Part shown: one piece after another, positions 4,503 to 24,943 of the stretch | How the letters are laid out: each line of letters begins with the position of its first letter | Position numbering within the stretch: the stretch's first letter is position 1 | NCBI GenBank assembly: GCA_964634365.1 | Contig: CAZWJU010000003.1 | Location: forward strand, 1-34,889 | DNA: 34,889 bases | Reading direction: 5' to 3' | Source: an uncultured Candidatus Saccharibacteria bacterium | Lineage (GTDB): Bacteria > Patescibacteriota > Minisyncoccia > Phycocordibacterales > UBA9973 | Made by a program: the position numbers and the translations under genes | The notes under the pieces: model-generated | What the model saw: the letters and a program-made list of their open reading frames with translations, nothing else | Databases searched by the model: none | Told to the model about the DNA's origin: nothing

Positions 4503-4526
4503 AAAACGCCCATTTTTGGGCGTTTT
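4503..4526. terminator. bidirectional intrinsic terminator
   Basis: AAAACGCCCA-TTTT-TGGGCGTTTT, 4 nt after the stop of ORF 4530-5126. Confidence 0.7.
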
Positions 4527-4529
4527 TAT

Positions 4530-5126: not shown

Positions 5127-5172
5127 AAGCTAGTACATTTGAGTGTTTTATAACACAAGGTATACAAAAAAC

Positions 5173-5196
5173 AAAACCGCTTTTTAAAGCGGTTTT
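5173..5196. terminator. bidirectional intrinsic terminator
   Basis: AAAACCGCTT-TTTA-AAGCGGTTTT, between ORF 5211-5903 and the purH-like gene. Confidence 0.65.
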
Positions 5197-5210
5197 AAAT
5201 TTAAATTTAA

Positions 5211-6440: not shown

Positions 6441-6454
6441 ATAATTTTTTTTAA

Positions 6455-6943: not shown

Positions 6944-7110
6944 ATATGTTTTATCCTAAAATAAAAAATCGACCCATCTTGGGCCATAGTATAAATGCGT
7001 ACATAAAATATTATGTATTCATCCTCGGCAGGCAAAACAAGTATTCTTGTTCAAATTGAGGCTTCCGCCACCCACTTTCTACGGCTTACAGATACGATAA
7101 TACCAACTAA
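6944..7110 (-). promoter_or_regulatory. structured rplJ leader with a terminator-like attenuator hairpin (possible L10-leader type autoregulation)
   Basis: The minus strand carries GGCCCA-AGA-UGGGUC + GAUUUUUUAUUUU (6957-6985), about 14 nt upstream of the rplJ AUG. Further 5' are GC-richer stems: AACAAG-AAUA-CUUGUU and AUACAUAA..UUAUGUAC. Confidence 0.4.
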
Positions 7111-10192: not shown

Positions 10193-10219
10193 AATACTTC
10201 TTTGTAAAAAAGAAGTATT
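10193..10219 (+). other. perfect 11-bp stem-loop without U-tract between the initiating transferase and epimerase genes
   Basis: AATACTTCTTT-GTAAA-AAAGAAGTATT, starting the base after the stop codon. Confidence 0.5.
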
Positions 10220-10240
10220 GCTGATAACATAAACCTGTCT

Positions 10241-11161: not shown

Positions 11162-11164
11162 ACA

Positions 11165-11830
11165 CTAGAGTTTAGAATCTATATCTTCAACAATTTTTAT
11201 ATAGTCAAAAGGTTTACGCAAAGAGTTATCTATTTCTAGAAAAATTTCTGGATTTTTTTCTTTTATAATACTCTTAACCTTCATATAGTTAGATTTCTGA
11301 GAAACTATCCATTTATTTAGATATTCACTGCCCGCTATAACACGCGGGTTGTTGTGTGCGTCTACTAAAGATGTAAACCTATCAAAATTGCCACCGTCTA
11401 GCACCAATACCAAGCCAACCCAATTTGGAAAAAAATTAATATACTTTTTTATATTTTTATCTGTTTCTTCTGTTTCTAAAATAGATAGATACCTCTGAAA
11501 CAAACCTTCGTCTATCAAAAAAATCTTATATGAAAAAATAGACTCTATCTTCGCCTTCATTAACTTTGAACATGAGAGCGTGAAAAGGTGTAGAACATAA
11601 GACCTAACCACTCTATTGCATCGTCTTATATATAAAAAAGAAAAGTAAACAAAACGTGGATTGAGTATAAAAAATAATGCAAAATAAAAAATTCTAAATA
11701 TCTTATTTTTTACCTCAACTTGTACTATTTCTTTTGAGCCCCCTTCTGTTAATATTTTAGATAGGGTTGTTTTGCCAGATCCAGGTAAACCAAATAATTC
11801 AATTATTTTATTTTTTCTTCGCTTTGACAT
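11165..11830 (-). CDS. P-loop NTPase of unknown function
   Basis: Walker A GLPGSGKTTLSKIL and Walker-B-like IFLIDEG, with an unusual hydrophobic segment (IFRIFYFALFFILNPRFVYFSFLYI) between them. Confidence 0.55.
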   Translation of the reverse strand: MSKRRKNKIIELFGLPGSGKTTLSKILTEGGSKEIVQVEVKNKIFRIFYFALFFILNPRFVYFSFLYIRRCNRVVRSYVLHLFTLSCSKLMKAKIESIFSYKIFLIDEGLFQRYLSILETEETDKNIKKYINFFPNWVGLVLVLDGGNFDRFTSLVDAHNNPRVIAGSEYLNKWIVSQKSNYMKVKSIIKEKNPEIFLEIDNSLRKPFDYIKIVEDIDSKL

Positions 11831-12569
11831 AAAAACTCTCAGATAAATATCCTAAAAATCCAACGGGCAGTACTCTCCATGGGAGTACTAGAACAAAAGA
11901 CTGGAGTGCGCTTGAAATAAATCTAAAAAATCCAAATTTCAACAATTTTCCAAATATTGCTGGTTTTACATCTTCTATTTCGAATCCATTTGACTCAAGC
12001 ATATGCAAAAAATGCTTTATATCGACCTGATCAGAGTGCAATGTCTTGTTTTTTAAATTTGTATGAAAATTGTATTTACTGCTTTTTGTAACAACTATAA
12101 GCTCACCACCCTGCTTCAGTAGTCTATTCATCTCACTAACTGCAAAATTTTTATCTTTGAAGTATTCGAAATTTCTAATAGATATAAAATTATCAAAACT
12201 TCCACTAGGTAATTTGTTCTCTAGAAAGTCACCCTGGATAAAATCCACTTTCGCTGTCTTTTCTTTTAATCTATCTTTTGCTCTAGATAGCATCTCCTCT
12301 GATACATCTAAATATGTAAGATGCTCTATTTTGTCTACATAAAACATAGTCCACATAGCATCTCCACCACCGACTTCGAGAACATTTCCTGATAGACCTG
12401 AAAAAGCTCTTTTTAGGGTTCTTTTAGTTTGCTCAAAATGAGACTCGTGCACTGGAGTTTTGTGCCATCTGTCATATGCATATTCGCCACCATCTTTTGA
12501 CAAGAAGGTGTCGTAATATTCTTTTACATATTGTGCGTCGAGATTTTGGTCTTTTACTTGAATACTCAT
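11808..12569 (-). CDS. class I SAM-dependent methyltransferase
   Basis: Motif I VLEVGGGDAMW, an acidic post-I residue (YLDVSEEM), and motif LLKQGGELIVV. Confidence 0.8.
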   Translation of the reverse strand: MSIQVKDQNLDAQYVKEYYDTFLSKDGGEYAYDRWHKTPVHESHFEQTKRTLKRAFSGLSGNVLEVGGGDAMWTMFYVDKIEHLTYLDVSEEMLSRAKDRLKEKTAKVDFIQGDFLENKLPSGSFDNFISIRNFEYFKDKNFAVSEMNRLLKQGGELIVVTKSSKYNFHTNLKNKTLHSDQVDIKHFLHMLESNGFEIEDVKPAIFGKLLKFGFFRFISSALQSFVLVLPWRVLPVGFLGYLSESFYVKAKKK

Positions 12570-12696
12570 AAATGTATAGTTAAGTATACATTTATGCTAG
12601 ACATAGTAAAGAAAATCACTTATAAATAGTAAGTATTTTATAGAAAAATCTTAAGGTGGTCGGGGCTTATAAAACCACAAAAAACACACAAAATCC

Positions 12697-13596
12697 ATGT
12701 CTAATAAAATATTTAAAACAATAACTAAAAAGACAAGTAACTGGTTGTATAAACTATTTTTTTTATGCGTCTTCAAAAAAGCGAGGTACGAAAGTATATT
12801 GCCTTTAAAAAAAGACTTACTGATTATTAGCGTGGCTTTCAATAACTCAGAAACAATATCAATCCAATACAGTCACTTAGTAAAAAATCTAAAAGAAGAT
12901 TTCGATTACCTAATCGCAGATAATTCAAGTAAAGAAAATATATCAGATGAGTTAAAGATTTTCTGCGAAAAAAACAATCTCTCTTATATCAGGCTACCTA
13001 AAAACCCTCTAACAAACATACGCACAAGCGGATCTCATAGTATTGCACTAAATTGGTGCTACAGAAATATAATCAAAAAAAATAAACCGAAATATTTTGG
13101 CTTATTGGATCACGATATATTTCCAATTAGAGATGTCGAAATAGTTAAAAATATGAAAAATGGTTTTTGGGGTGTGGTTCGTACAAAAAAAGAAAAGTGG
13201 TGGTACTTTTGGCCAGGTTTTTCTTTTTTTGAATATGAAAAATTTAAAAAATACAGATTCGACTTTTTCCCATACCATGCTGACAGGAACGGTTTGATTT
13301 TCTTGGACACAGGTGGATCAAACTATAATTCAATATGTAAAAAAATTGATAGAAATAGCATATCTGTGGCCGAGAGCGTGATAATCGATATACCAACCAA
13401 AAAACCTTTGGTTATAGGACGCGACTCCAGTCAAACATTTGAGATAATAGATAACAAGTGGATGCATATAAGACAAATTTCGTGGAGAGAAGAATCCTTC
13501 AATAAAATGTCAGAGTTTGATGGTATTATTAATATTGCAAACGAAATTATAGAAGAAAATTCAAAAAACAAGGCATGGCAAAATTCGAATGGGTAA
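12697..13596 (+). CDS. GT-A fold glycosyltransferase (GT2-like)
   Basis: LLIISVAFNNSETI...YLIADNSS and a DxD-like LLDHDIFP. It is the first gene of a tightly packed ten-gene plus-strand operon. Confidence 0.55.
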   Translation: MSNKIFKTITKKTSNWLYKLFFLCVFKKARYESILPLKKDLLIISVAFNNSETISIQYSHLVKNLKEDFDYLIADNSSKENISDELKIFCEKNNLSYIRLPKNPLTNIRTSGSHSIALNWCYRNIIKKNKPKYFGLLDHDIFPIRDVEIVKNMKNGFWGVVRTKKEKWWYFWPGFSFFEYEKFKKYRFDFFPYHADRNGLIFLDTGGSNYNSICKKIDRNSISVAESVIIDIPTKKPLVIGRDSSQTFEIIDNKWMHIRQISWREESFNKMSEFDGIINIANEIIEENSKNKAWQNSNG

Positions 13597-14816
13597 TAAA
13601 AAAGTTTGATACTTTTTTTCAACTAAATACTAAAAAAATACTGGGCCAAGCATCATATCTGCTAGGTGGACACGTTGTAAGCAATATACTTTCTTTTCTA
13701 GTAGCAGTTGCTGCAGCACGTTTTATAAGCAAAGATACTTACGGAACATATCGCTACATACTATCTATAGTAGGTTTTGTTGGGGCTTTTTCTCTAACTG
13801 GTTTGTCGACTGCGATCGTAAGAGATGTAGCCCGCGGTTATGACAATATTTTCAAGACATCTTTTATAAGATCGCTTGTCTGGTCAACACCAGCATTTGT
13901 TATGGGAATAGGTGCGGGTGTCTGGTATCTAATGCACGACAATCTCGTTTTGGGATTTTCAATAGTACTAGGAAGTATATTGTTCCCTGTTATCCAAGCA
14001 CTCCTTTTATATAGATCTTATCTAAACGGAAAAAGATATTTTCGCGCACTAATGAAAAGCAATATCGCATATTCTGTTGTAACTTCATTTGCAATTTTAG
14101 CGACACTATTCTTCAATCCATCAGTAACTACACTGGTAATTGTGTATTACGTTTCAAACATAGTTATTCTTTTTATTCTAAAAATAATAATCCAAAACAA
14201 ATTCAAACCAAATGCAGAAAAAGATCCTGAAAATGGAAAACTGGAGCATCACATGAGTCTAATGAACATATTGGATATAGGAGCGACTCAACTAGACAAA
14301 ATAATAATTTTTCAAATTGCAGGACCTATAGAAGTGGCGCGCTACACTTTCGCCACAATGATCCCAGAACAATTGCGCAATGTCATAAAATATATTCCGA
14401 CTCTCTCGATGCCAATATTTTCTGAACTCCCAAAAGATACAGCAAAATCAAAAGGTCTATTCTTGGTAAAAAAATTATTTCTAATTACTATTCCCTTTGT
14501 TGCTTTATATATACTAATATCTCCTATTGCATACAAAATATTGTTCCCTGCATATACTGAGGTAGTTTTATATTCACAAGTATTTTCTCTTATTCTTATA
14601 TTCGATGGAGGGATTAGCGGTGCAGTACTCAAGGCACAAAATCAAATCAAAAGTTTATACTGGGTCAATATTACTTCAAACATTGCACGCGTAATATTGC
14701 TTTTAATATTTGGATATATGTGGGGTATCTGGGGAGTTATTGCATCAAGAATAATCGGACGAGTATTGAGCTTTTTAATTGCATACGTTTTGGTGCTTAA
14801 GATGAAAACTAATTAA
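13575..14816 (+). CDS. Wzx-type oligosaccharide flippase (MOP superfamily polysaccharide biosynthesis protein)
   Basis: 413 aa with about 12 predicted TM helices and the typical N-terminus (ILGQASYLLGGHVVSNILSFLVAVAAARFISKDTYG). Confidence 0.75.
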   Translation: MAKFEWVIKKFDTFFQLNTKKILGQASYLLGGHVVSNILSFLVAVAAARFISKDTYGTYRYILSIVGFVGAFSLTGLSTAIVRDVARGYDNIFKTSFIRSLVWSTPAFVMGIGAGVWYLMHDNLVLGFSIVLGSILFPVIQALLLYRSYLNGKRYFRALMKSNIAYSVVTSFAILATLFFNPSVTTLVIVYYVSNIVILFILKIIIQNKFKPNAEKDPENGKLEHHMSLMNILDIGATQLDKIIIFQIAGPIEVARYTFATMIPEQLRNVIKYIPTLSMPIFSELPKDTAKSKGLFLVKKLFLITIPFVALYILISPIAYKILFPAYTEVVLYSQVFSLILIFDGGISGAVLKAQNQIKSLYWVNITSNIARVILLLIFGYMWGIWGVIASRIIGRVLSFLIAYVLVLKMKTN

Positions 14817-14817
14817 A

Positions 14818-15996
14818 ATGAATCAGCTAAATAAAAATAAAAAAATATTAATAATTGTTTTGCTTACAATAATTTCAATCAGCTTTAGTCTGCTTTTACT
14901 AAAAGTTATCCCCGCGCTCCCAGTAATATCAGATTCAAAAGACTATCATGATATAGCGACAGGTATTGTTTCAGACCTAACCTATATAACAATCTCAGAT
15001 GATCTAATTTTATACCCGCCTTTATATCCGATTTTTATATCTATAATATATAAATTTACACATATAGGTTTTTTTGATGGAATTTATTTTGTTCAAAGCT
15101 TGCTTGTATTTGGTATTTCATTGATTACTTTTACAATCTTAAAAAGAAACGCGGGTATACCTAACAAACTGGCAATTTTTGCCTCAGTTGTAGTTTTTTT
15201 CTGGCCATATTTCATACTGTATTCGGAGCTAGTAAGTTCTGAGATACTATATTCTTTTTTGCTAGCTCTATCTGTACTCATGTTTTTAAAGATAAACAAT
15301 GAATCGAGTATAAAAATTGTCGCTATCACTGGCATATTGTTTGGGCTTGCGATACTTGCAAGACCAGTAGCACTGCTTTTACTTCCATGGATAATAATTG
15401 GTTTGTTCTTTATGCAAAAGCTACCTAAAATATTTGGAAATATTTTAATACCTTGGAAAAAGTATTTTCTGGTTTTATTGATAACTATAGTAACAGTTGT
15501 ACCATGGGAGCTTTATGTGAAAATAAAATACGATAGATTTATCCCAGTAGCATCTAATTTGTCTTTTGTTTTTGATAAAGCAAATAAAACACTTGCTTAC
15601 TTACCAGACGAAGGAGTGACTACAGAAAGTGCTTTCTCTAAACTTATAAAAGCTAAGGCGAGAAATGTTTATCTATTCTGGGATCCAGGGGCAAGCGGAT
15701 ATCACCTAGAAATATTAAAAGAAAAATATCCCAAAGCAGGTTACTTAGTTTTATTGTATAAAATTGTATTTTTCGTAATTTTAGCCACAGCTTTGCTCAC
15801 TTCTATTTTCTATAGAAAAGATAGAGTTGTAATACTTCTAACTACAATCATATTATACTTCTGGGCACTGCATACAGTACTATTCCCTTTCCCTAGATAT
15901 ACCTTGCCCATAATACCGTTTGTGATTATACTCTCAACAATAGGATTATATAGATTTGGAACTACTTTCACATGGATCAAAAGAATAAAATTTTAA
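14818..15996 (+). CDS. GT-C fold membrane glycosyltransferase (ArnT/PMT_2-like, polyprenyl-P-sugar dependent)
   Basis: 392 aa and polytopic. It shows the SDSKDYHDIA...YPPLYP loop after TM1, and ILARPVALLL, as is typical of family-39-like enzymes. Confidence 0.6.
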   Translation: MNQLNKNKKILIIVLLTIISISFSLLLLKVIPALPVISDSKDYHDIATGIVSDLTYITISDDLILYPPLYPIFISIIYKFTHIGFFDGIYFVQSLLVFGISLITFTILKRNAGIPNKLAIFASVVVFFWPYFILYSELVSSEILYSFLLALSVLMFLKINNESSIKIVAITGILFGLAILARPVALLLLPWIIIGLFFMQKLPKIFGNILIPWKKYFLVLLITIVTVVPWELYVKIKYDRFIPVASNLSFVFDKANKTLAYLPDEGVTTESAFSKLIKAKARNVYLFWDPGASGYHLEILKEKYPKAGYLVLLYKIVFFVILATALLTSIFYRKDRVVILLTTIILYFWALHTVLFPFPRYTLPIIPFVIILSTIGLYRFGTTFTWIKRIKF

Positions 15997-16937
15997 TATT
16001 TCTTCCAGCACAAAACGAGGCTAAGACAATCGCCTCTGTTATAGATGACGCAAAAAAAGAGCTCAGAAACCACTCAGTGGAAACAGATTTTTTAGTTATC
16101 AACGACGGCTCAACAGACGAAACAAAAAACGAAGCAGAGAAATCTGGAGCTTTTGTAATTGACCACAAAGAAAAAAGGGGCTTGGGTTTTGTTTTTAGAG
16201 AAGCTGTAGAATACGCTAGAAAAAACAGTTATGAAATACTCGTGACCATCGATTCCGATAAACAATTTAAAGAATCTGAAATTATAAATTTCATTAGAAT
16301 CTTGGAAAAAGGTGAAGCTGATTTTGTTACAGGATCAAGATTCCTCTCTGATTCAAAAACAACAAACATAAGCAAGGTGAAAAAACTTGGCAACAAAGTA
16401 GGTGCCTGGTATATCAGCTCTATATTAAAGAAAAATTTTAGTGACGTTACTTGTGGGTTCCGTGGCTACAATCGTGAAGCACTGCTTCATCTGCATACAT
16501 TTTCAGATTTTACTTATACACAAGAGGTATTTTTAAACCTTGGTATTAAAAAATTGTCTATAAAAGAAATACCCATAACCACTATTTATCACAACGATAG
16601 AAAATCAAAAATGGTAAAAAGTATTTTTTCTTATATATCAAAATCACTAAAGATAATACTTAAATTTGCCATAGTATATGCTCCTATGAGACTTTTTGGA
16701 ACTCTTGGAAATCTATCTTTCTTGGTATCAATCGTATCTGGAGTATTTGTATTTTTCTGGAATAGAGCAACGGGTGAAGTGACTCCATATAAGTGGCTGG
16801 GTGTTTTAGGGGTCTCGGCAGGAGGAGCTGGACTTCTCTTTTACTCTGTCGGTATACTCTTGCAAATAACTAGCCGAATACAATTAACAATAGAAGAACA
16901 ATTATATCTAGCGAAAAAAAATTTATATGGAAAATAG
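15972..16937 (+). CDS. polyprenyl-phosphate glycosyltransferase (GT2, GtrB/ArnC/DPM1-like)
   Basis: ILIFLPAQNEAKTI..LVINDGSTDET..TIDSDKQF..GSRF, plus two C-terminal TM helices. Confidence 0.85.
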   Translation: MDQKNKILIFLPAQNEAKTIASVIDDAKKELRNHSVETDFLVINDGSTDETKNEAEKSGAFVIDHKEKRGLGFVFREAVEYARKNSYEILVTIDSDKQFKESEIINFIRILEKGEADFVTGSRFLSDSKTTNISKVKKLGNKVGAWYISSILKKNFSDVTCGFRGYNREALLHLHTFSDFTYTQEVFLNLGIKKLSIKEIPITTIYHNDRKSKMVKSIFSYISKSLKIILKFAIVYAPMRLFGTLGNLSFLVSIVSGVFVFFWNRATGEVTPYKWLGVLGVSAGGAGLLFYSVGILLQITSRIQLTIEEQLYLAKKNLYGK

Positions 16938-17526
16938 AAGAGTCACACAATTTACAGATAAATATAAAAAATCCGGTAAAATAGGAGCATTTTTATTGAA
17001 AAGATTCTTTTCTACAATATCGAAAACAATACCTAGTGACGTAAGCTCTGTCGCCGAGATAGGATGTGGAGCTGGATATTCTACAGAAGTATTACGTAGA
17101 TATTTCAAAAAAGAAGTCCCCTTTTTTGCTTCAGACGTCGACGAGGAGCTCGTTAAAATAGCAGGATCAAAAAATAGTAATGTCTCTTTTTCTGCAGAAT
17201 CAATATACAAATTGAATCATCAAGATAATTCATTTGACCTAGTTTTCTGCCTTGAGGTCATGGAACATTTAGAAAAACCAGAAGAAGCGCTGAAGGAACT
17301 TCGTCGTGTTACTAAAAAATACGCAATCATAAGTGTACCCAGAGAGCCTTTGTGGAGAATTTTAAATATGTGCAGAGGTTCATATCTAAAAGACTTCGGG
17401 AATACTCCTGGTCATATAAATCATTGGTCAAGAAGCAAAATAGGTAAATTCGTTTCAAAAGAGTTTGATGTTATAGATATAAAAAGTTCTATACCTTGGA
17501 CTATTGTGTTAGCGAAAAAGAAATGA
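16927..17526 (+). CDS. class I SAM-dependent methyltransferase
   Basis: Motif I VAEIGCGAGYST, then FDLVFCLEVMEHLEKPEEALKELRRVTKKYAIISVP. Confidence 0.8.
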   Translation: MENRRVTQFTDKYKKSGKIGAFLLKRFFSTISKTIPSDVSSVAEIGCGAGYSTEVLRRYFKKEVPFFASDVDEELVKIAGSKNSNVSFSAESIYKLNHQDNSFDLVFCLEVMEHLEKPEEALKELRRVTKKYAIISVPREPLWRILNMCRGSYLKDFGNTPGHINHWSRSKIGKFVSKEFDVIDIKSSIPWTIVLAKKK

Positions 17527-17897
17527 AAAATTTGTTGCTCCAGTTAACAAAATACGGTCTTACGATGGTTATAAGCCAAATTATAATTATTGCTTTTATG
17601 TATGTATCGGTAGATATATACAACTTAAATGAAAAAATATCTTATGCAATTGTATTAACTCTAGTATATGTTGGGGTCTATATAAGTTACTTAAATTTTG
17701 TATTTAAAAAAGACCACTCCAAAGAAACCCTTTTCAGATTTTCACACATATTGATATTCTCTTGGTTCGCAAACAATTTACTTTTTTCATTTTTAACTAG
17801 CAACTTAGGTATACACTATGCATATGCATCTATACTAAACACTGTAATCTTAGGGGGAATAAGGTTTGCCTTAAACAAATACTATGTCTTCAGATAA
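17523..17897 (+). CDS. GtrA-family small membrane protein (putative polyprenyl-P-sugar flippase)
   Basis: Four TM helices. I place the start at the ATG of an ATGA overlap with the preceding stop (MKNLLLQLTKYGL...); the ORF track extends to 17496. Confidence 0.7.
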   Translation: MKNLLLQLTKYGLTMVISQIIIIAFMYVSVDIYNLNEKISYAIVLTLVYVGVYISYLNFVFKKDHSKETLFRFSHILIFSWFANNLLFSFLTSNLGIHYAYASILNTVILGGIRFALNKYYVFR

Positions 17898-18714
17898 TAA
17901 AAAAGTAATACTAACTTTCGATGTTGAGCTATGGAGTGAAGGTGGGTGGATGATACCTTTTATAAAAAAAGGTCAGCTAGAAGAATACAATTATTTTTCT
18001 GAGTCTATAGAAAAAATATTACATCTTCTAAGAGAAAGTGGTAGTCTTGCTACATTTTTTATAACACAAGAAGTTACTGAAAAATATCCAGATGTAATAA
18101 AAAACATTCACTCTCTTGGACACGAAATAGGTATCCATGGACCGAAACATGTAAAACTAAAAGATTACTCTAGAGAAGATTTCAGAAATGATTGTGTAAA
18201 ACAAACAAATCTAATAGAAGGTATTACAGGCAAAAGACCTGTGGGATACAGAGCTCCACATTTTTCTGTTAACAAAGAAACACTCTGGGCAGTAGAGATA
18301 CTGAGAGATTTGGGATTCTCATACGACTCAAGTGTGTTCCCTATGAACATGGGCGAATACGGTATTTCTGGTGTAAAAACAACTAAATACGAGATCTTGC
18401 CAAACTTTTCAGAAATACCAGTTTCTGTTGCACAGATTGGTCCATTTAAAATACCTTTTGCTGGTGGAATATATTTTAGAGCGCTCCCTTATTTTATATT
18501 CAAATTTTTACTAAAAAACACACTAAAAAAACAAGATGTTGTTTTATATTTCCACCCACACGAACTTGAGAGCAGGACTCCCAAGATAAAATCGGGTCCA
18601 TGGCTAAGAAGAAAACTAAAATATTTTGGAACGAAAAGTAGTTTTAGCAAGTTTCAAAAACTCTCTAAATGTTATATATTTGATTCTATTGAGAATACTT
18701 TTTTAAAACCATGA
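17884..18714 (+). CDS. polysaccharide deacetylase (CE4 / NodB-homology)
   Basis: LTFDVELW.., HEIGIHGPKH, GYRAPHFS..; these match NodB motifs 1-3. Confidence 0.8.
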   Translation: MSSDNKKVILTFDVELWSEGGWMIPFIKKGQLEEYNYFSESIEKILHLLRESGSLATFFITQEVTEKYPDVIKNIHSLGHEIGIHGPKHVKLKDYSREDFRNDCVKQTNLIEGITGKRPVGYRAPHFSVNKETLWAVEILRDLGFSYDSSVFPMNMGEYGISGVKTTKYEILPNFSEIPVSVAQIGPFKIPFAGGIYFRALPYFIFKFLLKNTLKKQDVVLYFHPHELESRTPKIKSGPWLRRKLKYFGTKSSFSKFQKLSKCYIFDSIENTFLKP

Positions 18715-19418
18715 TCGCACTAATCCTTGCAGGCGGACGCGGAACACGACTTCGCCCACACACAGAAGAAATACCAAAGCCATTACTGGAAGTTAACGGT
18801 AAGGCTATTTTAGGCCACCAAATTGAAATGCTTGCAAAAGAAAGTATTTCAAAAATTGTAATTGTTACAGGATTTCTTTCTCATAAGATAGAAGAATATA
18901 TAAAAGAAAACTACCCTGAACAAAACATAGAATTTGCTGAAAATAAAGAATTTGAAGACTCTCGACCAGCATATGGGATAATAACTGCACTCCCTCATTT
19001 AAACGAAGATGTTCTTTATCTAAACGGAGACGTCCATTGTGAACAAAAAGTTTTGAATGATGTAATAAACAACGAGAAGAATTCTGTAACTGCTATACAA
19101 AAAATCCCTTGGGACGAAGAGCAGGTAAATGTCGTACTAGATGAAAATATGAATATTCTTCATATAGGAAAACACATAACAGAAAATGATAGCGATGGAG
19201 AGTTTATAGGCATAACTAAACTATCTAAAGACTTTATCGAGTCCATAAAAAAAATAATCGAGCAAGAAGGAAAAGAGGCTTTTAGATACTCTTTTGCAGT
19301 TGATCTTATAAATCACATAATACATGTGCATAAAAAAGATTTGCACGCTGTCGATGTAACCCTGTCTCGAGCTATTGAAATAGATACGGCCGAAGATCTA
19401 GCACGAGCAAACAAATAA
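18711..19418 (+). CDS. LicC/PntC-like nucleotidyltransferase (phospho- or phosphono-headgroup cytidylyltransferase)
   Basis: The N-terminus ALILAGGRGTRLRPHTEEIPKPLLEVNGKAILGHQIEML is the sugar/choline-phosphate nucleotidyltransferase signature. 235 aa, LicC-sized. Confidence 0.75.
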   Translation: MIALILAGGRGTRLRPHTEEIPKPLLEVNGKAILGHQIEMLAKESISKIVIVTGFLSHKIEEYIKENYPEQNIEFAENKEFEDSRPAYGIITALPHLNEDVLYLNGDVHCEQKVLNDVINNEKNSVTAIQKIPWDEEQVNVVLDENMNILHIGKHITENDSDGEFIGITKLSKDFIESIKKIIEQEGKEAFRYSFAVDLINHIIHVHKKDLHAVDVTLSRAIEIDTAEDLARANK

Positions 19419-19420: not shown

Positions 19421-20494
19421 ATGTTTAGAAATAAAAACATCTGGATATTTATAGGCTGGCACAAGTCAAAAAACGGAGAGGTCTTTGCTGATAACGCAAA
19501 ACATTTTTTCTTGTACATAAACAAAAAACACCCTGAGATAAAATCAATCTGGCTTGCAAAAGACAAGAGTCTCGCAAAAAAACTCCGCCAAGAAGGATTC
19601 CGTTCATATAATGAAAAAAGTCTAGCTGGTATTTGGTACTCACTAAGAGCAGGTTACACGGTAATCGATGCATTTTTGCAGAAATATAATTCTTATTTTT
19701 TACATGGCGCAAAAGTATTACAGCTTTTACACGGAAAAGGACTAAAAAAGAAGGGTTACGCACAGACTCCTTATATCAAAAATAGTTTCATATTTGGAAC
19801 ATCAGAATTTACAAATTCCCTACTCCCTGCCGAATTTACAAACGGCGCACAAATGTGCGTTTCTGGTTATTCACGCAATGATCAATTTTTTGATAAAACA
19901 AAACTTTATTTTTCTCCAGAAGAAAAAGAGTTAGTAGAGACTTTGAAAAAACATAGAGAAAGTGGGAAGAGGGTTGTTATGTATGCTCCGACTTTTCGTA
20001 GAGGAAACAAGGACTTTAATCCAGAAAATTATTTTGGAAGAGACAACGCGAACAGCTTTGCAAAAGAAAATAATGTTGTTTTCCTTGTATCTCTACACAC
20101 AAAATATCGTGCTCGAAAAAATCTGATGTTTGAAGAAAATATAATAGAGATGCCCGAGTGCGACATAAACTCAATAATGCCTTACATGGATATTCTCATA
20201 ACAGATTACTCTTCTTCTTATGTAGATTTTCTGTTATTAGATAGACCAATAATCTTTTATATACACGATATAGATTTATATAACGAAAAAGAAGGTCTAA
20301 TAGACGATTATGAGTCTCATATGCCTGGAGCAAAAATAAAAGATGAAACAGCTCTGTTTAAAGAGCTAAAAAATATACTAGACGGAAACGATAGTTGGAA
20401 AAAAGAACGCGAAGATGTTAGAAATCTATATCATACATATAAAGATGGCAGTTCATCAGAAAGAATTTTTTCCATTGTAAGCACTGGTAAATAG
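19421..20494 (+). CDS. TagB/TagF-family CDP-alcohol phosphotransferase (Glyphos_transf)
   Basis: FADNAKHFFLY.., VVMYAPTFR.., ILITDYSSSYVDFLLLDRPIIFY..; typical teichoic-acid-type glycerophosphotransferase strings. Confidence 0.8.
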   Translation: MFRNKNIWIFIGWHKSKNGEVFADNAKHFFLYINKKHPEIKSIWLAKDKSLAKKLRQEGFRSYNEKSLAGIWYSLRAGYTVIDAFLQKYNSYFLHGAKVLQLLHGKGLKKKGYAQTPYIKNSFIFGTSEFTNSLLPAEFTNGAQMCVSGYSRNDQFFDKTKLYFSPEEKELVETLKKHRESGKRVVMYAPTFRRGNKDFNPENYFGRDNANSFAKENNVVFLVSLHTKYRARKNLMFEENIIEMPECDINSIMPYMDILITDYSSSYVDFLLLDRPIIFYIHDIDLYNEKEGLIDDYESHMPGAKIKDETALFKELKNILDGNDSWKKEREDVRNLYHTYKDGSSSERIFSIVSTGK

Positions 20495-21604
20495 ATCTTC
20501 GTATTTTTTAATATAAGTATCTACGCCATAACTCTCAGCGCTTTTTTTAGCACTCTCTTTGTAAGAAGAGAGTTTTTCTACGTCGATTTTTAAAAGTTTT
20601 TTTATAACATTTGAAGTTCCTAGTGGATCATTTGGTAAAAAGAACCCATTTTCTCCATCTTTTAAATATTCATTTACCCCGGCAACGTGCGTAGACAGTA
20701 GAGGTAACCCAAAAGCTAAACCATTCATAGCAGATATACAAAATCCTTCTCGAAGAGATGTGAGTAAAAAGAAACCTGAAACTGCATAAAAGCGATATAT
20801 GTCAGTTCTCTCTCCAAGTAAAATAACATTTTTAGATAAACCGAGTTTGTTTATCTGTTTCTCCAGATCACTTCTAAGTGGACCGTCCCCTATTACAACA
20901 AGCTTTGCCTTGTTGTCTTCTTTTACCACATGAGAAAATGCATCTATCATAAGCGCATGATTTTTTTGTACAGATAAGCGAGCCACGTTCAAAAACATCC
21001 TATCTTCCCCACTGAGGCCTATTTCTCTTCTTATTTCGTCTCTATGTGGCCCATACTCCTCCATCGCTTTTTTTATAGACCCCAACTCAACGCCGTTATA
21101 AATAACAGTAAACTTTTCTTTCTTGATACCTTCTGTTTTTGAAATAATATCTACAACACCATTTGAGTCTGCGACTATTGTGTATGCAAACATTGAAAAA
21201 AATTTATTTAGAAAGCGAACATTCCAAGGTCTCTTTAAATCAGTGTTGTGCTCAGCAGCAATAGCTGTGTATTTAAAAAATGGTTTTAGAAAAAGAACTA
21301 TTACATTACTGAAAAACAAACTAGATTTAACTATATCTGGTTTTTCCTTTTTTATTATAGAGACAAGTTTACCCCACTCTGCAATATCAAAGAACCTTTT
21401 AAAATTTAACTTATAAACAGGGACGTGTTCTGGGATCAGGCCGTAAAAATCAACTTTACCGGGAAATTGATAGAGAGAGATTATAGAGAAATCAAACTTA
21501 CTACTATCGAGCAAATTAACCTGGTCAACAATCAATTTTTGAACACCGCCAACAACAAGATCGTTTGTAACTATGACTACTTTTATTTTCTTTCTATTTT
21601 CCAT
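20456..21604 (-). CDS. GT4 (GT-B, Glycos_transf_1) glycosyltransferase
   Basis: FFLLTSLREGFCISAMNGLAFGLPLLSTHVAGVNEYLKDGENGFF. Confidence 0.88.
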   Translation of the reverse strand: MENRKKIKVVIVTNDLVVGGVQKLIVDQVNLLDSSKFDFSIISLYQFPGKVDFYGLIPEHVPVYKLNFKRFFDIAEWGKLVSIIKKEKPDIVKSSLFFSNVIVLFLKPFFKYTAIAAEHNTDLKRPWNVRFLNKFFSMFAYTIVADSNGVVDIISKTEGIKKEKFTVIYNGVELGSIKKAMEEYGPHRDEIRREIGLSGEDRMFLNVARLSVQKNHALMIDAFSHVVKEDNKAKLVVIGDGPLRSDLEKQINKLGLSKNVILLGERTDIYRFYAVSGFFLLTSLREGFCISAMNGLAFGLPLLSTHVAGVNEYLKDGENGFFLPNDPLGTSNVIKKLLKIDVEKLSSYKESAKKSAESYGVDTYIKKYEDLFTSAYNGKNSF

Positions 21605-22250
21605 TTTTTTCTAAGATAAAGAATCTATGATATTTATTTAGTGGGGGCTGAAATTCATCCTTTATAGTGAAGTGACGCTCAAAAGTTTTTCTAACTTTTT
21701 TCTTTGAGGTTGTGAAAAAATCTATCTCCCAATAGTGCTGATCAGACTCGTGAAACCCAGGGAATCTCACTGGAAATTCTATATTTATATCGAAAAAACG
21801 CCTTTTAAACAGAGTTTGCATAAAAGGTATCTTGAAAACAAATTCAAATCCGGTCGATCTGTTTGGCAAAGAAACTAGAGCGTACTTTTTTGTGATACGA
21901 GCTATATCTCCGACTACTTTTTCAAAATTTTCAAATGGTATATGTTCTAAAACCTGACAAGCCATAACACAGTCGAACGAACCCTCTTCGAAAGGCAGGT
22001 TTCTAACATCAGCAACAACATCCGGGTTTACACTAGCGTCAAAATCACAAGTTGTTACTTTATAACCTAGATTATCTAACTCTTTTGAAACTAGCTTGCT
22101 ACCTGGACCTATTTCAAGCACAGTATTTATGTCGGCCAACTTAACAATCGAATCAATCTGATAAAAAAACGAAATAAATCTAGGAAGTGTTGTGTACTTC
22201 CACTTTTTATAGTGCCCTTCTTTAACTTGAAGTTTATTTTCTTGTGACAT
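21594..22250 (-). CDS. class I SAM-dependent methyltransferase
   Basis: VLEIGPGSKLVS.., FDCVMACQVLEHIP.., ITKKYALVSLP. Confidence 0.8.
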   Translation of the reverse strand: MSQENKLQVKEGHYKKWKYTTLPRFISFFYQIDSIVKLADINTVLEIGPGSKLVSKELDNLGYKVTTCDFDASVNPDVVADVRNLPFEEGSFDCVMACQVLEHIPFENFEKVVGDIARITKKYALVSLPNRSTGFEFVFKIPFMQTLFKRRFFDINIEFPVRFPGFHESDQHYWEIDFFTTSKKKVRKTFERHFTIKDEFQPPLNKYHRFFILEKNGK

Positions 22251-22881
22251 AAAAGTAACCTATTGGAAAAGGATAATTTGTTTTTAATTTTCTTGGGATA
22301 ATAAAGTCTAGCATGAGCGCAAGTGTATTTACCACCAGTCTGATTGGCCATATAAGCAAAAGTGGATTTAGTGCATAAGCACAAACTGAAAATCTGTCTC
22401 CAAGTCTTTTGAATTCAACTATTTCAAAACCTGTTTTTTCAATCATTCGATCTATGCCCTCTTTTGAGAATCTAATATAATCGTGTGGCTCTGGCATTTC
22501 GTTTGCGGTAAATGGATTTGATATTAGTAAGTATCCCCCGTTTTTCAAAACTCTTTTTACTTCGGACATTGTAAATTCTGAGTCTTCGGCGATATACAGA
22601 TTATGAAATAAAAACACAGTGTCGAAACTTGCATCTGGAAAATCAAACTTTTTGTTGAAATCCAAAACCTTGCCTACACCATCTTTTTGTACATAATCTG
22701 TTTTTGTATATTTTATATTTTTAGGTAAATATTTTTCATAACTTGGATTTCCACCAGATCCTATATCTAAAACTGTGCCACTTATAAAAGAATTTGCATT
22801 TAGTAAGCTCCATTGAAAAAGAATCCGGTAAATAGTCTTGCCTTTTATATTGTTTTTTAGAAAATCAATTATGCGTGCCAT
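22234..22881 (-). CDS. class I SAM-dependent methyltransferase
   Basis: VLDIGSGGNPS.., FDTVFLFHNLY.., LKNGGYLLISNP. Confidence 0.78.
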   Translation of the reverse strand: MARIIDFLKNNIKGKTIYRILFQWSLLNANSFISGTVLDIGSGGNPSYEKYLPKNIKYTKTDYVQKDGVGKVLDFNKKFDFPDASFDTVFLFHNLYIAEDSEFTMSEVKRVLKNGGYLLISNPFTANEMPEPHDYIRFSKEGIDRMIEKTGFEIVEFKRLGDRFSVCAYALNPLLLIWPIRLVVNTLALMLDFIIPRKLKTNYPFPIGYFYVTRK

Positions 22882-23657
22882 GACGAGACTATAGCATAAA
22901 AGGATGATAATTTCGCCTTAAATTTAAGCATATCTACGCTACTATCTATGGATATTCTCGGTATTCTAAATAAATCCGTATTTTTACCGACAGCACCCTC
23001 TTTTACAGTAAGACCGTATTTGAATCCACTTAAACAAACTTTTTCTATGACACCTTGATTGAACTTCCCTCTAGGATAAGCAATGCTCTCAGGATAAAAA
23101 CCAGTTATGTTTTTTATATCTTCTTTTGATTGTCCTATTTCATTTTCAAGATCTATTTCGCTAATTTTTGTAAACTCCCTATGAGTAGCTCCATGTGAGC
23201 CGAGCTCTACCAATTCATCTGAAAATATTTTTCTTGCATCTTCAAAAGATAAAATCTCGCAATCCATACCTGTAGTTGTCTTCAAAATATTGCTTGGCAT
23301 ATTTGTCGGCCAAAAAAGTGTAGATTTTATATTTCTTTCTTTTAACATTGGGTATGCAAAATCCAAAAAATCTTTATGCCCATCGTCAAAAGTTAGAGCT
23401 ATATTTTTATAGACGCTTTTTTTATTTTTTATTTTTTCAAACAATTCTGAAACAGTGACAAAAATAAAATCATTTTTCTGAAGATAGTCTATTTGCAGGA
23501 CAAAATCCTCTGGCTTAACATTGAAAAAAACACCCGCTTTTTTAAAAGAGTGATACATCAAAACACGTGCCTTTTTATCTTTTAAAAAAGACTCCAAAGA
23601 TACACAGAATCTATAAAAAATTGTCTTTAAAATACCTTTAAACATAGGTTTAAGCAA
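22869..23657 (-). CDS. polysaccharide deacetylase (CE4 / NodB-homology)
   Basis: ALTFDDGHKDF.., LGSHGATH.., IAYPRGKF. Confidence 0.82.
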   Translation of the reverse strand: MLKPMFKGILKTIFYRFCVSLESFLKDKKARVLMYHSFKKAGVFFNVKPEDFVLQIDYLQKNDFIFVTVSELFEKIKNKKSVYKNIALTFDDGHKDFLDFAYPMLKERNIKSTLFWPTNMPSNILKTTTGMDCEILSFEDARKIFSDELVELGSHGATHREFTKISEIDLENEIGQSKEDIKNITGFYPESIAYPRGKFNQGVIEKVCLSGFKYGLTVKEGAVGKNTDLFRIPRISIDSSVDMLKFKAKLSSFYAIVSSWHA

Positions 23658-23710: not shown

Positions 23711-24943
23711 TTAATACCAACGAGTTGTCTCTGTGTGAACTCGCGAAAGCCCCCTATCTCCAGAAAACTCCGAAATTACCGCAAGTTCACTATATGGGTC
23801 TACTCCATCTGGTCTGATTTCTACAATCAGAATTTTTCCATCGATAAGACTTTCATCTTTAACAACAAAAGAGTGCTCAGTACCAGGTGCGATAAATGCA
23901 GAATCCCCGGGAAAAAGATCGCTGAACTTACCTTCGCCCCAATGAAGCGTGACTTTTGTGTTTCCGATATTGTACACCCAGCGATCTTTCTGTACTGATT
24001 CAAAAAAGCCAACACTTGAAGAAAAAATTCTTTCGAAAATTTTACTTTCCGGTTGAGATTTGTTGTTCACTAAAAATAAATTCACTTGGTCGGTTCCGTG
24101 ACTTACCGCGTCATGATGCTTGTAAATAGAAACTCCACCTTTAAAATCATCGAGGGCGAGATTTTTGGTGTAATCTTTTATGATCGTTTTAACACCGCTT
24201 AAATACTCTTCCAAGGAAAGATTACTTATCGAATTTTTGAACATCGGATCGGCTATAGCACCACCGTACGTTACAGCGAGGATTAAACCCCTGCCCTCTT
24301 CCCTTGTTGTAAAGGTATGGGGAACAAATGGTGAAATGTAATTTGTATCACCGGTATTCATCTTCTCGACATGGCGTTTGCCATACTGATCAATCCAGTA
24401 GAAATTTACCGGACCAATAAAATACGTAATCTGGTGTTCGAAGTGTCCTTTGTTGAAAGCCCAATCGGGCAATTCATCTGCCGATTCTCCGTCATGAACA
24501 TAGAGTTCCTTGATCCACTCCGGACGAAATGTAGAGATATTGCTCATGGCAGTATCTGCATAATCGTAATATGGAATCTCCATAGGCCCCCTTGATAGGG
24601 TGCGTTTGCTCGCCATAGTCTCAGAAAACTTCATAGTCCTGACACCTTCGACAGTATCGTCTATTACCGGGAAAGAATCTACAAATTCCGCAGGATAAAA
24701 ATCTCGTTCATTTATCCCTGTGATAGAAATAAGCTTGTTTTTTAACTCTTCGGTAAATTCAATTTTACCTGAAATCGTATCTTCTAATAGGAGCGGGTCT
24801 ACACCAATCAGCGGACCAGCGGTCTGTGGCGTGTGTTTAAGGCCATTTAAAAGACCTCTAACAACCGAACCGATGTTTTGTTTGTAATGGTACATCTTTA
24901 TTAAATTTTCTAGATTATATAGGAAAGTTAGACTATTCGCCAC
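23711..24943 (-). CDS. bi-cupin non-heme Fe(II) oxygenase of the HEPD / methylphosphonate synthase (MPnS) family; the motif pattern favours MPnS
   Basis: Architecture is HTH-like alpha domain + cupin, twice. The first cupin carries NKGHFEHQITYFIGPVNFYW...NYISPFVPH, giving H167-x3-Q171, F181, I203 and H209. It is the last gene of an operon that makes 2-hydroxyethylphosphonate. Confidence 0.7.
   Translation of the reverse strand: MANSLTFLYNLENLIKMYHYKQNIGSVVRGLLNGLKHTPQTAGPLIGVDPLLLEDTISGKIEFTEELKNKLISITGINERDFYPAEFVDSFPVIDDTVEGVRTMKFSETMASKRTLSRGPMEIPYYDYADTAMSNISTFRPEWIKELYVHDGESADELPDWAFNKGHFEHQITYFIGPVNFYWIDQYGKRHVEKMNTGDTNYISPFVPHTFTTREEGRGLILAVTYGGAIADPMFKNSISNLSLEEYLSGVKTIIKDYTKNLALDDFKGGVSIYKHHDAVSHGTDQVNLFLVNNKSQPESKIFERIFSSSVGFFESVQKDRWVYNIGNTKVTLHWGEGKFSDLFPGDSAFIAPGTEHSFVVKDESLIDGKILIVEIRPDGVDPYSELAVISEFSGDRGLSRVHTETTRWY

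What the first reader, a model, noticed from the sequence alone, without database searches (positions are those of the whole stretch)
24317..24445. Metal-site motif of the bi-cupin matches methylphosphonate synthase rather than HEPD
In the first cupin the translated sequence is NKGHFEHQITYFIGPVNFYWIDQYGKRHVEKMNTGDTNYISPFVPH. This gives H167, Q171 (H+4), F181 (Q+10), I203 (Q+32) and H209 (Q+38).

From my memory of the N. maritimus MPnS structure work (Born et al. 2017, Science), MPnS uses a 2-His-1-Gln triad (H148, Q152, H190). The Gln is pinned by F162 and I184. HEPD has Tyr and Gly at those two packing positions and uses a Glu as the third ligand.

The five residues here reproduce that pattern with a constant offset of 19. 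No Glu occupies the position 6 residues before the second His; it is Ile. If this holds, the enzyme would convert HEP to methylphosphonate, a precursor of aerobic methane, in a lineage where I am not aware of it having been described.
Basis: partly seen in the sequence, partly recalled or inferred. Interest (0 to 1): 0.85.

Follow-up and report, generated by a model that had tools for sequence, protein, structure and literature searches.

The report
Short methylphosphonate-synthase-like enzyme in a CPR bacterium
An ultra-small (CPR/Patescibacteria) bacterium carries a full phosphonate pathway ending in a trimmed-down relative of methylphosphonate synthase that keeps every residue known to steer the reaction towards methylphosphonate, so this unannotated enzyme group may be an overlooked source of a methane precursor in fresh and ground water.

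Summary
On the minus strand, window 24317-24445 encodes H167...H209 of a two-cupin protein (gene 23711-24943, or 23711-24895 from the likelier ATG). H167/Q171/F181/I203/H209 align column for column with H148/Q152/F162/I184/H190 of Nitrosopumilus maritimus MPnS (PDB 6b9s). Class II HEPD (6b9r) has Tyr163/Gly184 at the two packing sites. Class I HEPD (3g7d) has Glu176 where this protein has Ile.

MPnS is the best match by both sequence and predicted fold. PepM, Ppd and an Fe-alcohol dehydrogenase lie directly upstream, inside a surface-glycan cluster.

New findings:
- The host is a Paceibacteria (CPR) bacterium.
- The protein belongs to a distinct clade of about 380-420 residues, found in CPR bacteria and DPANN archaea.
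- This clade lacks the second helix-turn-helix-like domain of all characterised MPnS/HEPD enzymes.
- It separates from 140 long forms in 200/200 bootstraps.
- It carries an invariant extra Glu inside the metal motif.
- Its named NCBI members are all "hypothetical protein".

Methylphosphonate as the product is inferred, not shown (about 0.65). A 2025 groundwater study already lists a few such sequences as MPnS-like, without mention of the taxonomy or architecture in the held text. I rate it a new variant of a known kind, of moderate to high interest.

The parts
23711..24895 (-). Short-form MPnS-like two-cupin Fe(II) oxygenase gene.
   Evidence: ORF. Database gene call P0001, 394 aa. Best PDB match by sequence is MPnS 6b9s, 4.5e-56. 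AF2 model has pLDDT 93.5. Best Foldseek hits are 6b9s/6b9t, about 1e-33.
24317..24445 (-). Metal-site segment of cupin 1, H167 to H209. Codons: H167 24443-24445, E169 24437-24439, Q171 24431-24433, F181 24401-24403, I203 24335-24337, H209 24317-24319.
   Evidence: Translation. Column-for-column alignment with MPnS H148/Q152/F162/I184/H190. E169 is invariant in the short clade only.
24933..26294 (-). PEP mutase with an N-terminal PF01467-type cytidylyltransferase domain
   Evidence: TIGR02320 383.8 bits against a cutoff of 319.55. Pfam PEP_mutase plus CTP_transf_like. EDKIGLKSNS motif at residue 278.
26348..27271 (-). Conserved 307-aa protein with a sulfotransferase-like fold, from a CPR-restricted family of unknown role
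   Evidence: No Pfam or NCBIfam hit. Named homologues are all Pacebacteria/Patescibacteria/Harrisonbacteria 'hypothetical protein'. AF2 pLDDT 91.9. Foldseek best hits are tyrosylprotein sulfotransferases, 1.8e-5, TM about 0.5.
27371..28525 (-). Fe-dependent alcohol dehydrogenase, the likely phosphonoacetaldehyde reductase that makes 2-HEP
   Evidence: Pfam Fe-ADH 2.6e-42. It is below the cutoff of every specific NCBIfam model, including Phn_Fe-ADH. The role is inferred from its position between ppd and pepM and from conserved synteny.
28515..29645 (-). Phosphonopyruvate decarboxylase (Ppd)
   Evidence: TIGR03297 485.4 bits against a cutoff of 312.5.
18711..19418 (+). LicC/PntC-like nucleotidyltransferase, a candidate CMP-phosphonate-forming enzyme
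   Evidence: Pfam NTP_transferase/NTP_transf_3. Best PDB hits are T. denticola PntC-AEPT 6pd1 (4.5e-14) and LicC 1jyk. A homologous gene sits next to, or is fused with, MPnS homologues in many loci.
19421..20494 (+). TagF-like CDP-alcohol phosphotransferase (Glyphos_transf), a candidate for transferring the activated phosphonate to the glycan
   Evidence: PF04464 on the identical gene in L001. Sub-cutoff NCBIfam hits to TarF/TarL/TarB. The role is inferred.
29652..32917 (-). Three GT4 glycosyltransferases upstream of ppd
   Evidence: Pfam Glycos_transf_1.
20456..23657 (-). Downstream genes of the same strand block: polysaccharide deacetylase, two class I methyltransferases and a GT4
   Evidence: Pfam, NCBIfam. 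Same order in the Nomurabacteria locus L002.
8918..18714 (+). Remainder of the glycan cluster: priming sugar transferase, epimerase, flippase, PMT_2-like membrane protein, GT2, methyltransferases and a DUF3473 deacetylase
   Evidence: Pfam. Two genes in this span (11165-12569) are on the minus strand.

Best explanation
The gene encodes a non-haem Fe(II)/O2 enzyme of the MPnS/HEPD/HppE family.

Shown:
- It is homologous to MPnS over both cupins.
- It has the His-Gln-His iron triad.
- It has Phe and Ile at the two positions that flank the Gln.
- It has all the other residues conserved across MPnS and class II HEPD.
- It sits directly downstream of pepM, in a block with an Fe-alcohol dehydrogenase and ppd, inside a cell-surface glycan cluster of a Paceibacteria (CPR) genome.

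Inferred pathway: PEP is converted to phosphonopyruvate by PepM, then to phosphonoacetaldehyde by Ppd, then to 2-hydroxyethylphosphonate (2-HEP) by the Fe-ADH.

Inferred mechanism (from my knowledge of Born et al. 2017 and earlier van der Donk work): 2-HEP binds the iron through its hydroxyl and a phosphonate oxygen. O2 activation cleaves C1-C2, giving a methylphosphonate radical and iron-bound formate. Because Phe and Ile hold the Gln ligand fixed, the formate stays positioned so that the radical takes its hydrogen. The products are methylphosphonate and CO2, rather than the hydroxymethylphosphonate and formate made by HEPD.

Inferred fate: methylphosphonate is activated to a CMP conjugate by one of the two cytidylyltransferases in the cluster and esterified to the glycan.

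The enzyme is a structurally reduced form with domain order alpha1-cupin1-linker helix-cupin2-C-terminal helix. It lacks the second HTH-like domain and is typical of a clade found in CPR bacteria and DPANN archaea.
For: - Sequence: phmmer gives 4.5e-56 to MPnS 6b9s against 7.3e-41 to SaHEPD 6b9r.
- Structure: Foldseek on a pLDDT 93.5 model ranks MPnS (about 1e-33) above SaHEPD (1e-30) and SvHEPD (1e-17).
- Motif: it aligns with the verified PDB residues.
- Rule: the Phe/Ile requirement for methylphosphonate synthesis is stated in PMC11978286. The Tyr-Gly motif is stated to be diagnostic of class II HEPD in PMC8976061.
- Family survey: of 254 family sequences, 203 are HQFIH and 25 are HQYGH. 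No column other than these two separates long MPnS-type from class II HEPD-type sequences.
- Conserved residues: K20, R98, R102, Y110, Y112, N148, R198, S332, R385 and W393 (Nm K28, R98, R102, Y108, Y110, N145, R195, S397, R441, W449) are conserved at 90% or more in all three groups.
- Neighbours: PepM and Ppd score above NCBIfam equivalog cutoffs. The PepM EDK(X)5NS motif is present.
- Synteny: the same cassette is syntenic in a Nomurabacteria genome. DPANN loci keep NTP-transferase, PepM, the MPnS-like gene, Ppd and Fe-ADH together.
- Missing domain: it is the least conserved part of long forms, with no residue at 90% or more.
Against: - No biochemical datum exists for any short-form member.
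- The Phe/Ile rule was established on long-form enzymes only.
- The short clade separates from all long forms (200/200 bootstraps). In the N-terminal half it is no closer to N. maritimus MPnS (46%) than class II HEPD is (47%), so phylogeny does not decide the product.
- The clade has an invariant Glu at His+2 inside the metal motif, where long MPnS has Met or Leu.
- The second HTH-like domain is absent.
- The PepM-fused PF01467 domain is of the Fom1 type, which cytidylylates HEP (PMC6697681). The true substrate could therefore be CMP-HEP.
- CPR bacteria are usually regarded as fermentative, whereas this enzyme needs O2 (own knowledge).
Confidence: 0.65

Rival explanations
1. The short-form enzyme acts on 2-HEP but gives the HEPD outcome (hydroxymethylphosphonate and formate), or a mixture. 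On this view the missing alpha2 domain and the extra Glu change how formate or the Gln is held, despite the Phe/Ile pair.
For: The short clade lies outside both long MPnS and class II HEPD. Mean distances are 1.18 and 1.33, against 1.03 between those two groups. It has an invariant Glu at His+2. Class I HEPD also has Glu at His+2.
Against: Phe/Ile are present in 64 of 70 clade members, which argues for selection on exactly these two positions. The Tyr/Gly pair is absent from the clade; the six other members are HQFNH, HQLKH and HQYIH. No gene for further processing of hydroxymethylphosphonate was recognised in the cluster. The context is a glycan cluster with nucleotidyltransferases, as reported for MPnS neighbourhoods (PMC9381506).
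Confidence: 0.15
2. The enzyme acts on a different or activated substrate, for example CMP-2-HEP or another hydroxyalkylphosphonate. Its product would then be a nucleotide-linked or otherwise new phosphonate.
For: PepM is fused to a PF01467 cytidylyltransferase of the Fom1 type, which makes CMP-HEP (PMC6697681). A second LicC/PntC-like transferase is in the cluster. NTP-transferase fusions to MPnS homologues exist: P0056 at 623 aa and P0079/P0089/P0093 at 708 aa. Loss of alpha2 could open the site.
Against: The residues that I recall binding the free phosphonate in MPnS (K28, R102, Y110, N145) are all conserved. Long-form MPnS from organisms with the same fusions and neighbours uses free 2-HEP (own knowledge of Metcalf 2012 and Born 2017). 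No radical-SAM methylase of the Fom3 type is in the window.
Confidence: 0.12
3. The protein is a catalytically dead or purely structural remnant of an MPnS/HEPD gene that lost a domain.
For: A whole domain of about 65-70 residues is missing relative to every characterised member.
Against: About 60 full-length homologues at 35-87% identity share the same architecture. They have 37 invariant positions, including all metal and conserved active-site residues. The model is confident. Linkage to the pathway genes is conserved across CPR and DPANN loci.
Confidence: 0.03

Closest known systems
Methylphosphonate synthase (MPnS) of Nitrosopumilus maritimus, PDB 6b9s/6b9t
   Same: - Best hit by sequence and by predicted fold.
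- Identical H/Q/H triad and Phe/Ile clamp in the same columns.
- Conserved K28, R102, Y110 and N145 equivalents, and the C-terminal R...W motif.
- Same neighbours: pepM with a nucleotidyltransferase fusion, ppd, Fe-ADH and glycan genes.
   Different: - Only about 31-32% identity overall (46% in the N-terminal half).
- About 65-70 residues shorter, because the second HTH-like alpha domain (Nm residues about 233-305, Pfam HTH_3 hit) is replaced by a single linker helix.
- Invariant Glu at His+2 in place of Met150.
- DRW in place of HQY in cupin 2.
- The host is a CPR bacterium rather than a marine thaumarchaeon.
Class II hydroxyethylphosphonate dioxygenase (Streptomyces albus HEPD, PDB 6b9r)
   Same: Same fold, same 2-His-1-Gln triad, same substrate pathway. 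Similar overall distance from the window protein (41.5% identity in the N-terminal half).
   Different: SaHEPD has Tyr163/Gly184 where the window protein has Phe/Ile. SaHEPD has the second alpha domain. HEPD genes sit in antibiotic-type clusters rather than glycan clusters (own knowledge).
Class I HEPD (PhpD of S. viridochromogenes, PDB 3g7d)
   Same: Two-cupin fold (Foldseek 1.3e-17). Glu at His+2.
   Different: The third ligand is Glu176, at the column where the window protein has Ile. It has Ala instead of Gln at His+4. Identity is only about 15%.
HppE, hydroxypropylphosphonate epoxidase (PDB 1zz6, 5u55)
   Same: Same superfamily; a single alpha plus cupin unit.
   Different: It is about 190-200 aa with one cupin, and the match is weak (2.6e-5 and 0.034). 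It has a different substrate and chemistry.
MPnS-like sequences from Alberta groundwater metagenomes (supplementary alignment of PMC11978286)
   Same: Several entries are the same short form, with GHFEHQ, VNF[HY]W and a C-terminal TETTRWY, and no alpha2 block. Examples are MQ_C4_g0040.c0159.01954 and unbinned_C4_g0007.c0043.00468.
   Different: That paper treats them as putative MPnS on the strength of the five residues. The text held here gives no taxonomy, gene context or comment on the missing domain.

Membership tests
MPnS (methylphosphonate synthase) | Homology to MPnS over the two-cupin core, with MPnS as the closest solved relative | tested here: met
   phmmer gives 4.5e-56 to 6b9s, with two stretches covering both cupins. 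Foldseek ranks 6b9s/6b9t first at about 1e-33.
MPnS (methylphosphonate synthase) | 2-His-1-Gln iron triad (H148, Q152, H190) | tested here: met
   H167/Q171/H209 fall in the same alignment columns. Actual metal ligation was not observed.
MPnS (methylphosphonate synthase) | Phe and Ile next to the Gln (F162, I184), the pair reported as required for methylphosphonate synthesis | tested here: met
   F181 and I203 align with them. The rule is quoted from PMC11978286. 64 of 70 short-clade members keep the pair.
MPnS (methylphosphonate synthase) | Conserved substrate-binding residues (K28, R102, Y110, N145; roles recalled from memory) | tested here: met
   K20, R102, Y112 and N148 (394-aa numbering) are conserved at 90% or more in the short clade, long MPnS and class II HEPD alike.
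MPnS (methylphosphonate synthase) | Four-domain architecture alpha1-cupin1-alpha2-cupin2, about 440-460 aa | tested here: not met
   The spacing from His193 to the cupin 2 motif is about 110 residues, against about 180 in long forms, and the distribution is bimodal. The HTH_3 Pfam hit at Nm 249-300 has no counterpart here. The model shows one linker helix, 228-244. The pairwise alignment shows the gap.
MPnS (methylphosphonate synthase) | Falls in one clade with experimentally characterised MPnS | tested here: not met
   The short clade is separated from all 140 long forms, both MPnS-type and HEPD-type, in 200/200 NJ bootstraps. It is no nearer to long MPnS than class II HEPD is.
MPnS (methylphosphonate synthase) | Genomic linkage to pepM, ppd and a phosphonoacetaldehyde reductase | tested here: met
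   All three lie within 5 kb upstream on the same strand. The linkage is conserved in CPR and DPANN loci.
MPnS (methylphosphonate synthase) | Converts 2-HEP and O2 to methylphosphonate and CO2 | not testable with these tools
   Needs an enzyme assay.
HEPD class II (S. albus type) | Tyr163/Gly184 next to the Gln ligand | tested here: not met
   The window protein has Phe/Ile. 6b9r has Y163/G184. The Tyr-Gly motif is called diagnostic in PMC8976061.
HEPD class I (PhpD type) | 2-His-1-Glu triad with the Glu six residues before the second His, and no Gln at His+4 | tested here: not met
   The profile alignment places PhpD E176 on the MPnS I184 column and Ala on the Gln column. The window protein has Ile and Gln there.
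HppE | Single alpha plus cupin unit of about 200 aa with a His-Glu-His site | tested here: not met
   The window protein has two cupins and 394 aa. It matches HppE only weakly, at 2.6e-5. It has Gln rather than Glu at His+4.

The most novel reading that the evidence does not exclude
The alpha2-less, database-invisible MPnS clade of CPR bacteria and DPANN archaea really does make methylphosphonate. It would then be a substantial, so far uncounted source of this compound in lakes and aquifers. That would supply the missing producer for oxic methane formation in fresh water, where surveys based on KEGG annotation find C-P lyase but no mpnS (PMC10734540).
Probability: 0.35. Interest if true: 0.8.

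Novelty: new variant of a known kind. Interest (0 to 1): 0.62.

Why it matters
Methylphosphonate cleavage by C-P lyase is a leading explanation for methane supersaturation in oxygenated water. The known producers, however, are marine: Nitrosopumilus, SAR11 and a few others.

In a large oligotrophic lake, no mpnS was found by KEGG annotation, although pepM and ppd genes resembling those of Woesearchaeota were present. [quoted passage not shown]

The enzyme type described here gets no NCBIfam hit and only a sub-threshold Pfam cupin hit. Its named NCBI members are all called hypothetical proteins. It shares only about 30% identity with reference MPnS, so identity-filtered surveys, such as the 60% cutoff used in PMC9381506, would probably miss it. 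I did not test whether the KEGG model K18049 detects it.

If it makes methylphosphonate, three things follow:
- Ultra-small, host-dependent bacteria and archaea of fresh and ground water become candidate producers of a methane precursor.
- These organisms would decorate their surface glycans with an unusual, phosphatase-resistant group.
- The enzyme would show that the second HTH-like domain of MPnS/HEPD is dispensable, giving a smaller scaffold for mechanistic work.

Tried and rejected
- Born et al. 2017 (PMC5901744) could not be read. I verified the residue numbers from the PDB sequences instead. The rule came from papers that quote it.
- A first NJ bootstrap script timed out.
- Exact-set monophyly tests gave 0/100 and 15/200, because fragments and a few divergent sequences move in and out of the clade. 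I replaced them with the test 'all 60 full-length short forms separated from all 140 long forms', which gave 200/200.
- A search for columns other than Phe/Ile that discriminate MPnS-type from class II HEPD-type sequences found none. No independent vote on the product is therefore available. Because the groups were defined by those two columns, recovering them is circular.
The distance of E153/E169 and K20 from the metal site, and an overlay on 6b9t, could not be computed.
- Recent foreign origin of the cassette: not supported. GC is even, 31-39%, across the window.
- Literature searches for mpnS or pepM together with Patescibacteria found nothing relevant. The Woesearchaeota genomics paper does not mention phosphonates.
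- The sample accession SRR12486993 appears in no held paper, so the habitat of the window is unknown.
- NCBI labels 'uncultured Methanosarcinales' (L003, L005) and 'uncultured Gammaproteobacteria' (L008) for short-form loci were not verified. L008 also carries the CPR-restricted 307-aa protein, so its label is doubtful.
Full report
**1. The observation**

The finding lies on the minus strand. Window 24317-24445 read in reverse gives HFEHQITYFIGPVNFYWIDQYGKRHVEKMNTGDTNYISPFVPH, exactly the 43 codons from H167 to H209. The plus strand gives a stop-containing string.

The ORF is 23711-24943, 410 aa from a GTG. In that numbering, residues 167, 171, 181, 203 and 209 are H, Q, F, I and H. The GTG lies within the last codons of the upstream pepM gene. 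The public gene call for the identical protein starts at the ATG 16 codons later (P0001, 394 aa), and homologues begin there too. The equivalent numbering is then H151/Q155/F165/I187/H193. This does not affect the argument.

**2. Check of the recalled reference residues**

Born et al. 2017 is not in the held library, so I took the numbers from the PDB sequences themselves.

- The near-complete sequence of N. maritimus MPnS (6b9s), recovered from a HMMER alignment, has H148, Q152, F162, I184 and H190.
- S. albus HEPD (6b9r) has H149, Q153, Y163, G184 and H190.
- In the direct alignment of the window protein to both, the five residues fall in the same columns. The constant offset of 19 is real.
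- A profile of long-form family members aligned to class I HEPD (PhpD, 3g7d, and its E176H mutant 4yar) puts E176 on the MPnS I184 column, six residues before H182. It puts Ala on the Gln column.

Class II HEPD shares the 2-His-1-Gln triad and differs by Tyr/Gly.

The rule that Phe and Ile next to the Gln are required for methylphosphonate synthesis is quoted in PMC11978286. That Tyr-Gly is diagnostic of class II HEPD is stated in PMC8976061.

**3. What the protein is**

- By sequence, the best solved relative is MPnS (4.5e-56), then SaHEPD (7.3e-41), then HppE (2.6e-5).
- An AlphaFold2 model built on 59 homologues is confident (pLDDT 93.5, pTM 0.91).
- Foldseek ranks MPnS chains first (about 1e-33), then SaHEPD (1e-30), then PhpD (1e-17).
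- Pfam gives only a sub-threshold Cupin_2 hit, and NCBIfam gives nothing.

**4. Surroundings**

Directly upstream on the same strand are:

- PEP mutase fused to a PF01467 cytidylyltransferase. It scores above the TIGR02320 cutoff and has the EDK(X)5NS motif.
- A conserved 307-aa protein.
- An Fe-alcohol dehydrogenase.
- Phosphonopyruvate decarboxylase, above the TIGR03297 cutoff.
- Three GT4 glycosyltransferases.

Downstream and on the other strand are deacetylases, methyltransferases, a TagF-like phosphotransferase, a LicC/PntC-like nucleotidyltransferase (best PDB hit is the T. denticola PntC), a flippase, a GT2 and a priming sugar transferase.

The genes for making 2-HEP, a candidate for consuming it, and candidates for activating a phosphonate and attaching it to a surface glycan are therefore all present. 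GC content is even across the window.

**5. Host**

The window carries bacterial rplJ and rplL, an L10 leader and the 5' end of a 23S rRNA. All named top hits of the L10 protein are Candidatus Pacebacteria, Paceibacterota, Parcubacteria or Nomurabacteria. The best named hit is 84% identical. The organism is a Paceibacteria-type CPR/Patescibacteria bacterium.

**6. A distinct short clade**

Homology searches found about 60 full-length relatives of 372-428 aa at 35-87% identity, and one 623-aa fusion to an NTP-transferase. The canonical 440-460-aa MPnS sequences share only 30-34% overall.

- Named members and genome loci are Nomurabacteria (56%), Patescibacteria group, Woesearchaeota and Nanoarchaeota. 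Some have doubtful automatic labels.
- The whole family is small: 285 cluster representatives at E ≤ 1e-3 among 1.84 billion.
- The spacing between the second His and the cupin 2 motif is bimodal, about 110 against about 180 residues.
- The missing piece is the second alpha domain. In N. maritimus MPnS it gives a Pfam HTH_3 hit at about residues 249-300, and it matches XRE-type HTH proteins.
- It is replaced here by a single helix.
- In long forms this domain is the least conserved region, with no residue at 90% or more, so losing it is plausibly tolerated.

On the N-terminal alpha1 plus cupin 1 region, all 60 full-length short forms separate from all 140 long forms in 200/200 NJ bootstraps. 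The short clade is somewhat farther from class II HEPD (mean distance 1.33) than from long MPnS-type sequences (1.18). Those two groups are closer to each other (1.03). Identity of the window protein to N. maritimus MPnS in this region is 46%, the same as MPnS to SaHEPD at 47%. Phylogeny therefore does not assign the product.

**7. Evidence bearing on the product**

- Among 254 aligned family members, 203 have HQFIH and 25 have HQYGH. Within the 70-tip short clade, 64 have HQFIH.
- No column other than the Phe/Tyr and Ile/Gly pair separates long MPnS-type from class II HEPD-type sequences. This is consistent with these two residues being the switch. Because the groups were defined by those columns, the test adds no independent vote.
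- Residues conserved at 90% or more in all three groups include the equivalents of N. maritimus K28, R98, R102, Y108, Y110, N145, R195, S397, R441 and W449. From memory, K28, R102, Y110 and N145 bind the phosphonate.
- The gene context is a glycan cluster with nucleotidyltransferases. This matches published MPnS neighbourhoods (PMC9381506) rather than antibiotic clusters. It is syntenic in a Nomurabacteria genome and retained in DPANN loci.

**8. Caveats**

- The short clade has an invariant Glu at His+2 (G-H-F-E-H-Q). Long MPnS has Met or Leu there (Glu in 5 of 108), and class II HEPD has Leu.
- Class I HEPD also has Glu at His+2 while using E176 as ligand. The residue is therefore probably not a ligand, but I could not check this without coordinates.
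- The PF01467 domain fused to PepM is of the Fom1 type, which cytidylylates HEP (PMC6697681). CMP-HEP is a conceivable substrate or competing branch.
- The enzyme needs O2, which is unusual for the metabolism generally ascribed to CPR bacteria (own knowledge).

**9. Prior knowledge**

- No held paper pairs mpnS or pepM with Patescibacteria in a relevant way.
- The Woesearchaeota genomics paper does not mention phosphonates.
- The supplementary alignment of PMC11978286 (groundwater, 2025) contains several short-form sequences, taken as MPnS-like after checking the five residues. The text held here gives no taxonomy or comment on the architecture.
- PMC10734540 found no mpnS by KEGG in a lake that had Woesearchaeota-like pepM and ppd.

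**10. Verdict**

The protein is best described as a short, alpha2-less variant of MPnS that is typical of CPR bacteria and DPANN archaea. It most likely makes methylphosphonate for a surface glycan (about 0.65), but this is unproven. I rate it a new variant of a known kind, with interest about 0.6.

Noticed in passing
window 26348-27271 (-): A 307-aa protein between the Fe-ADH and pepM has no Pfam or NCBIfam hit. It belongs to a family whose named members are all CPR 'hypothetical proteins'. Its confident AF2 model matches PAPS-dependent (tyrosylprotein) sulfotransferases (Foldseek 1.8e-5, TM about 0.5). It is co-located with the short MPnS gene in L001, L002 and L008, and matching contig lengths suggest four further shared contigs. 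Its role in the phosphonate pathway is unknown.
   Followed up: partly
window 24437-24439 (-), residue E169 (E153 in the 394-aa numbering): There is a Glu at His+2 inside the metal motif. It is invariant in all 63 short-clade sequences. Long MPnS has Met or Leu at this position, and class II HEPD has Leu. Its position relative to the iron could not be determined.
   Followed up: partly
window 1-571 (-) and 6953-7102 (-): The 5' end of a bacterial 23S rRNA lies at the window edge. An L10 leader lies upstream of rplJ-rplL (6081-6943). The genes between them (1151-5903) mostly lack any Pfam hit.
   Followed up: no
window 33796-34695 (-): An EamA/DMT-type membrane protein gives a sub-cutoff hit to TIGR03340, 'phosphonate utilization associated putative membrane protein'. 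It sits at the far end of the phosphonate block and may be a transporter linked to the pathway.
   Followed up: no
P0056, P0079, P0089, P0093, P0115; loci L003-L048: MPnS homologues are often fused to, or directly preceded by, a LicC/PntC-like NTP-transferase. Fusions of 591-708 aa include one eukaryotic transcript and one short-form fusion of 623 aa. This suggests that methylphosphonate is cytidylylated immediately after synthesis.
   Followed up: partly
L009, L012, L020 (Chloroflexota/SAR202) and P0263, P0356: Some family members carry a hybrid Tyr/Ile signature (VNYYY...CYITPF). Others carry rarer combinations: HQLKH, HQFNH, HQVMH, HQLGH. Their product cannot be predicted from the two-residue rule.
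   Followed up: no
L021, L023, L024, L032 compared with L004, L007: DPANN archaea (Woesearchaeota, Nanoarchaeota) carry both long-form and short-form MPnS homologues in different genomes. The short form is therefore not simply a lineage marker.
   Followed up: no
L008 (CAYYTQ010000029.1); L003, L005 (TPA assemblies): Short-form loci are labelled 'uncultured Gammaproteobacteria' and 'uncultured Methanosarcinales'. L008 also encodes the CPR-restricted 307-aa protein at 62% identity, so the label looks unreliable.
   Followed up: partly
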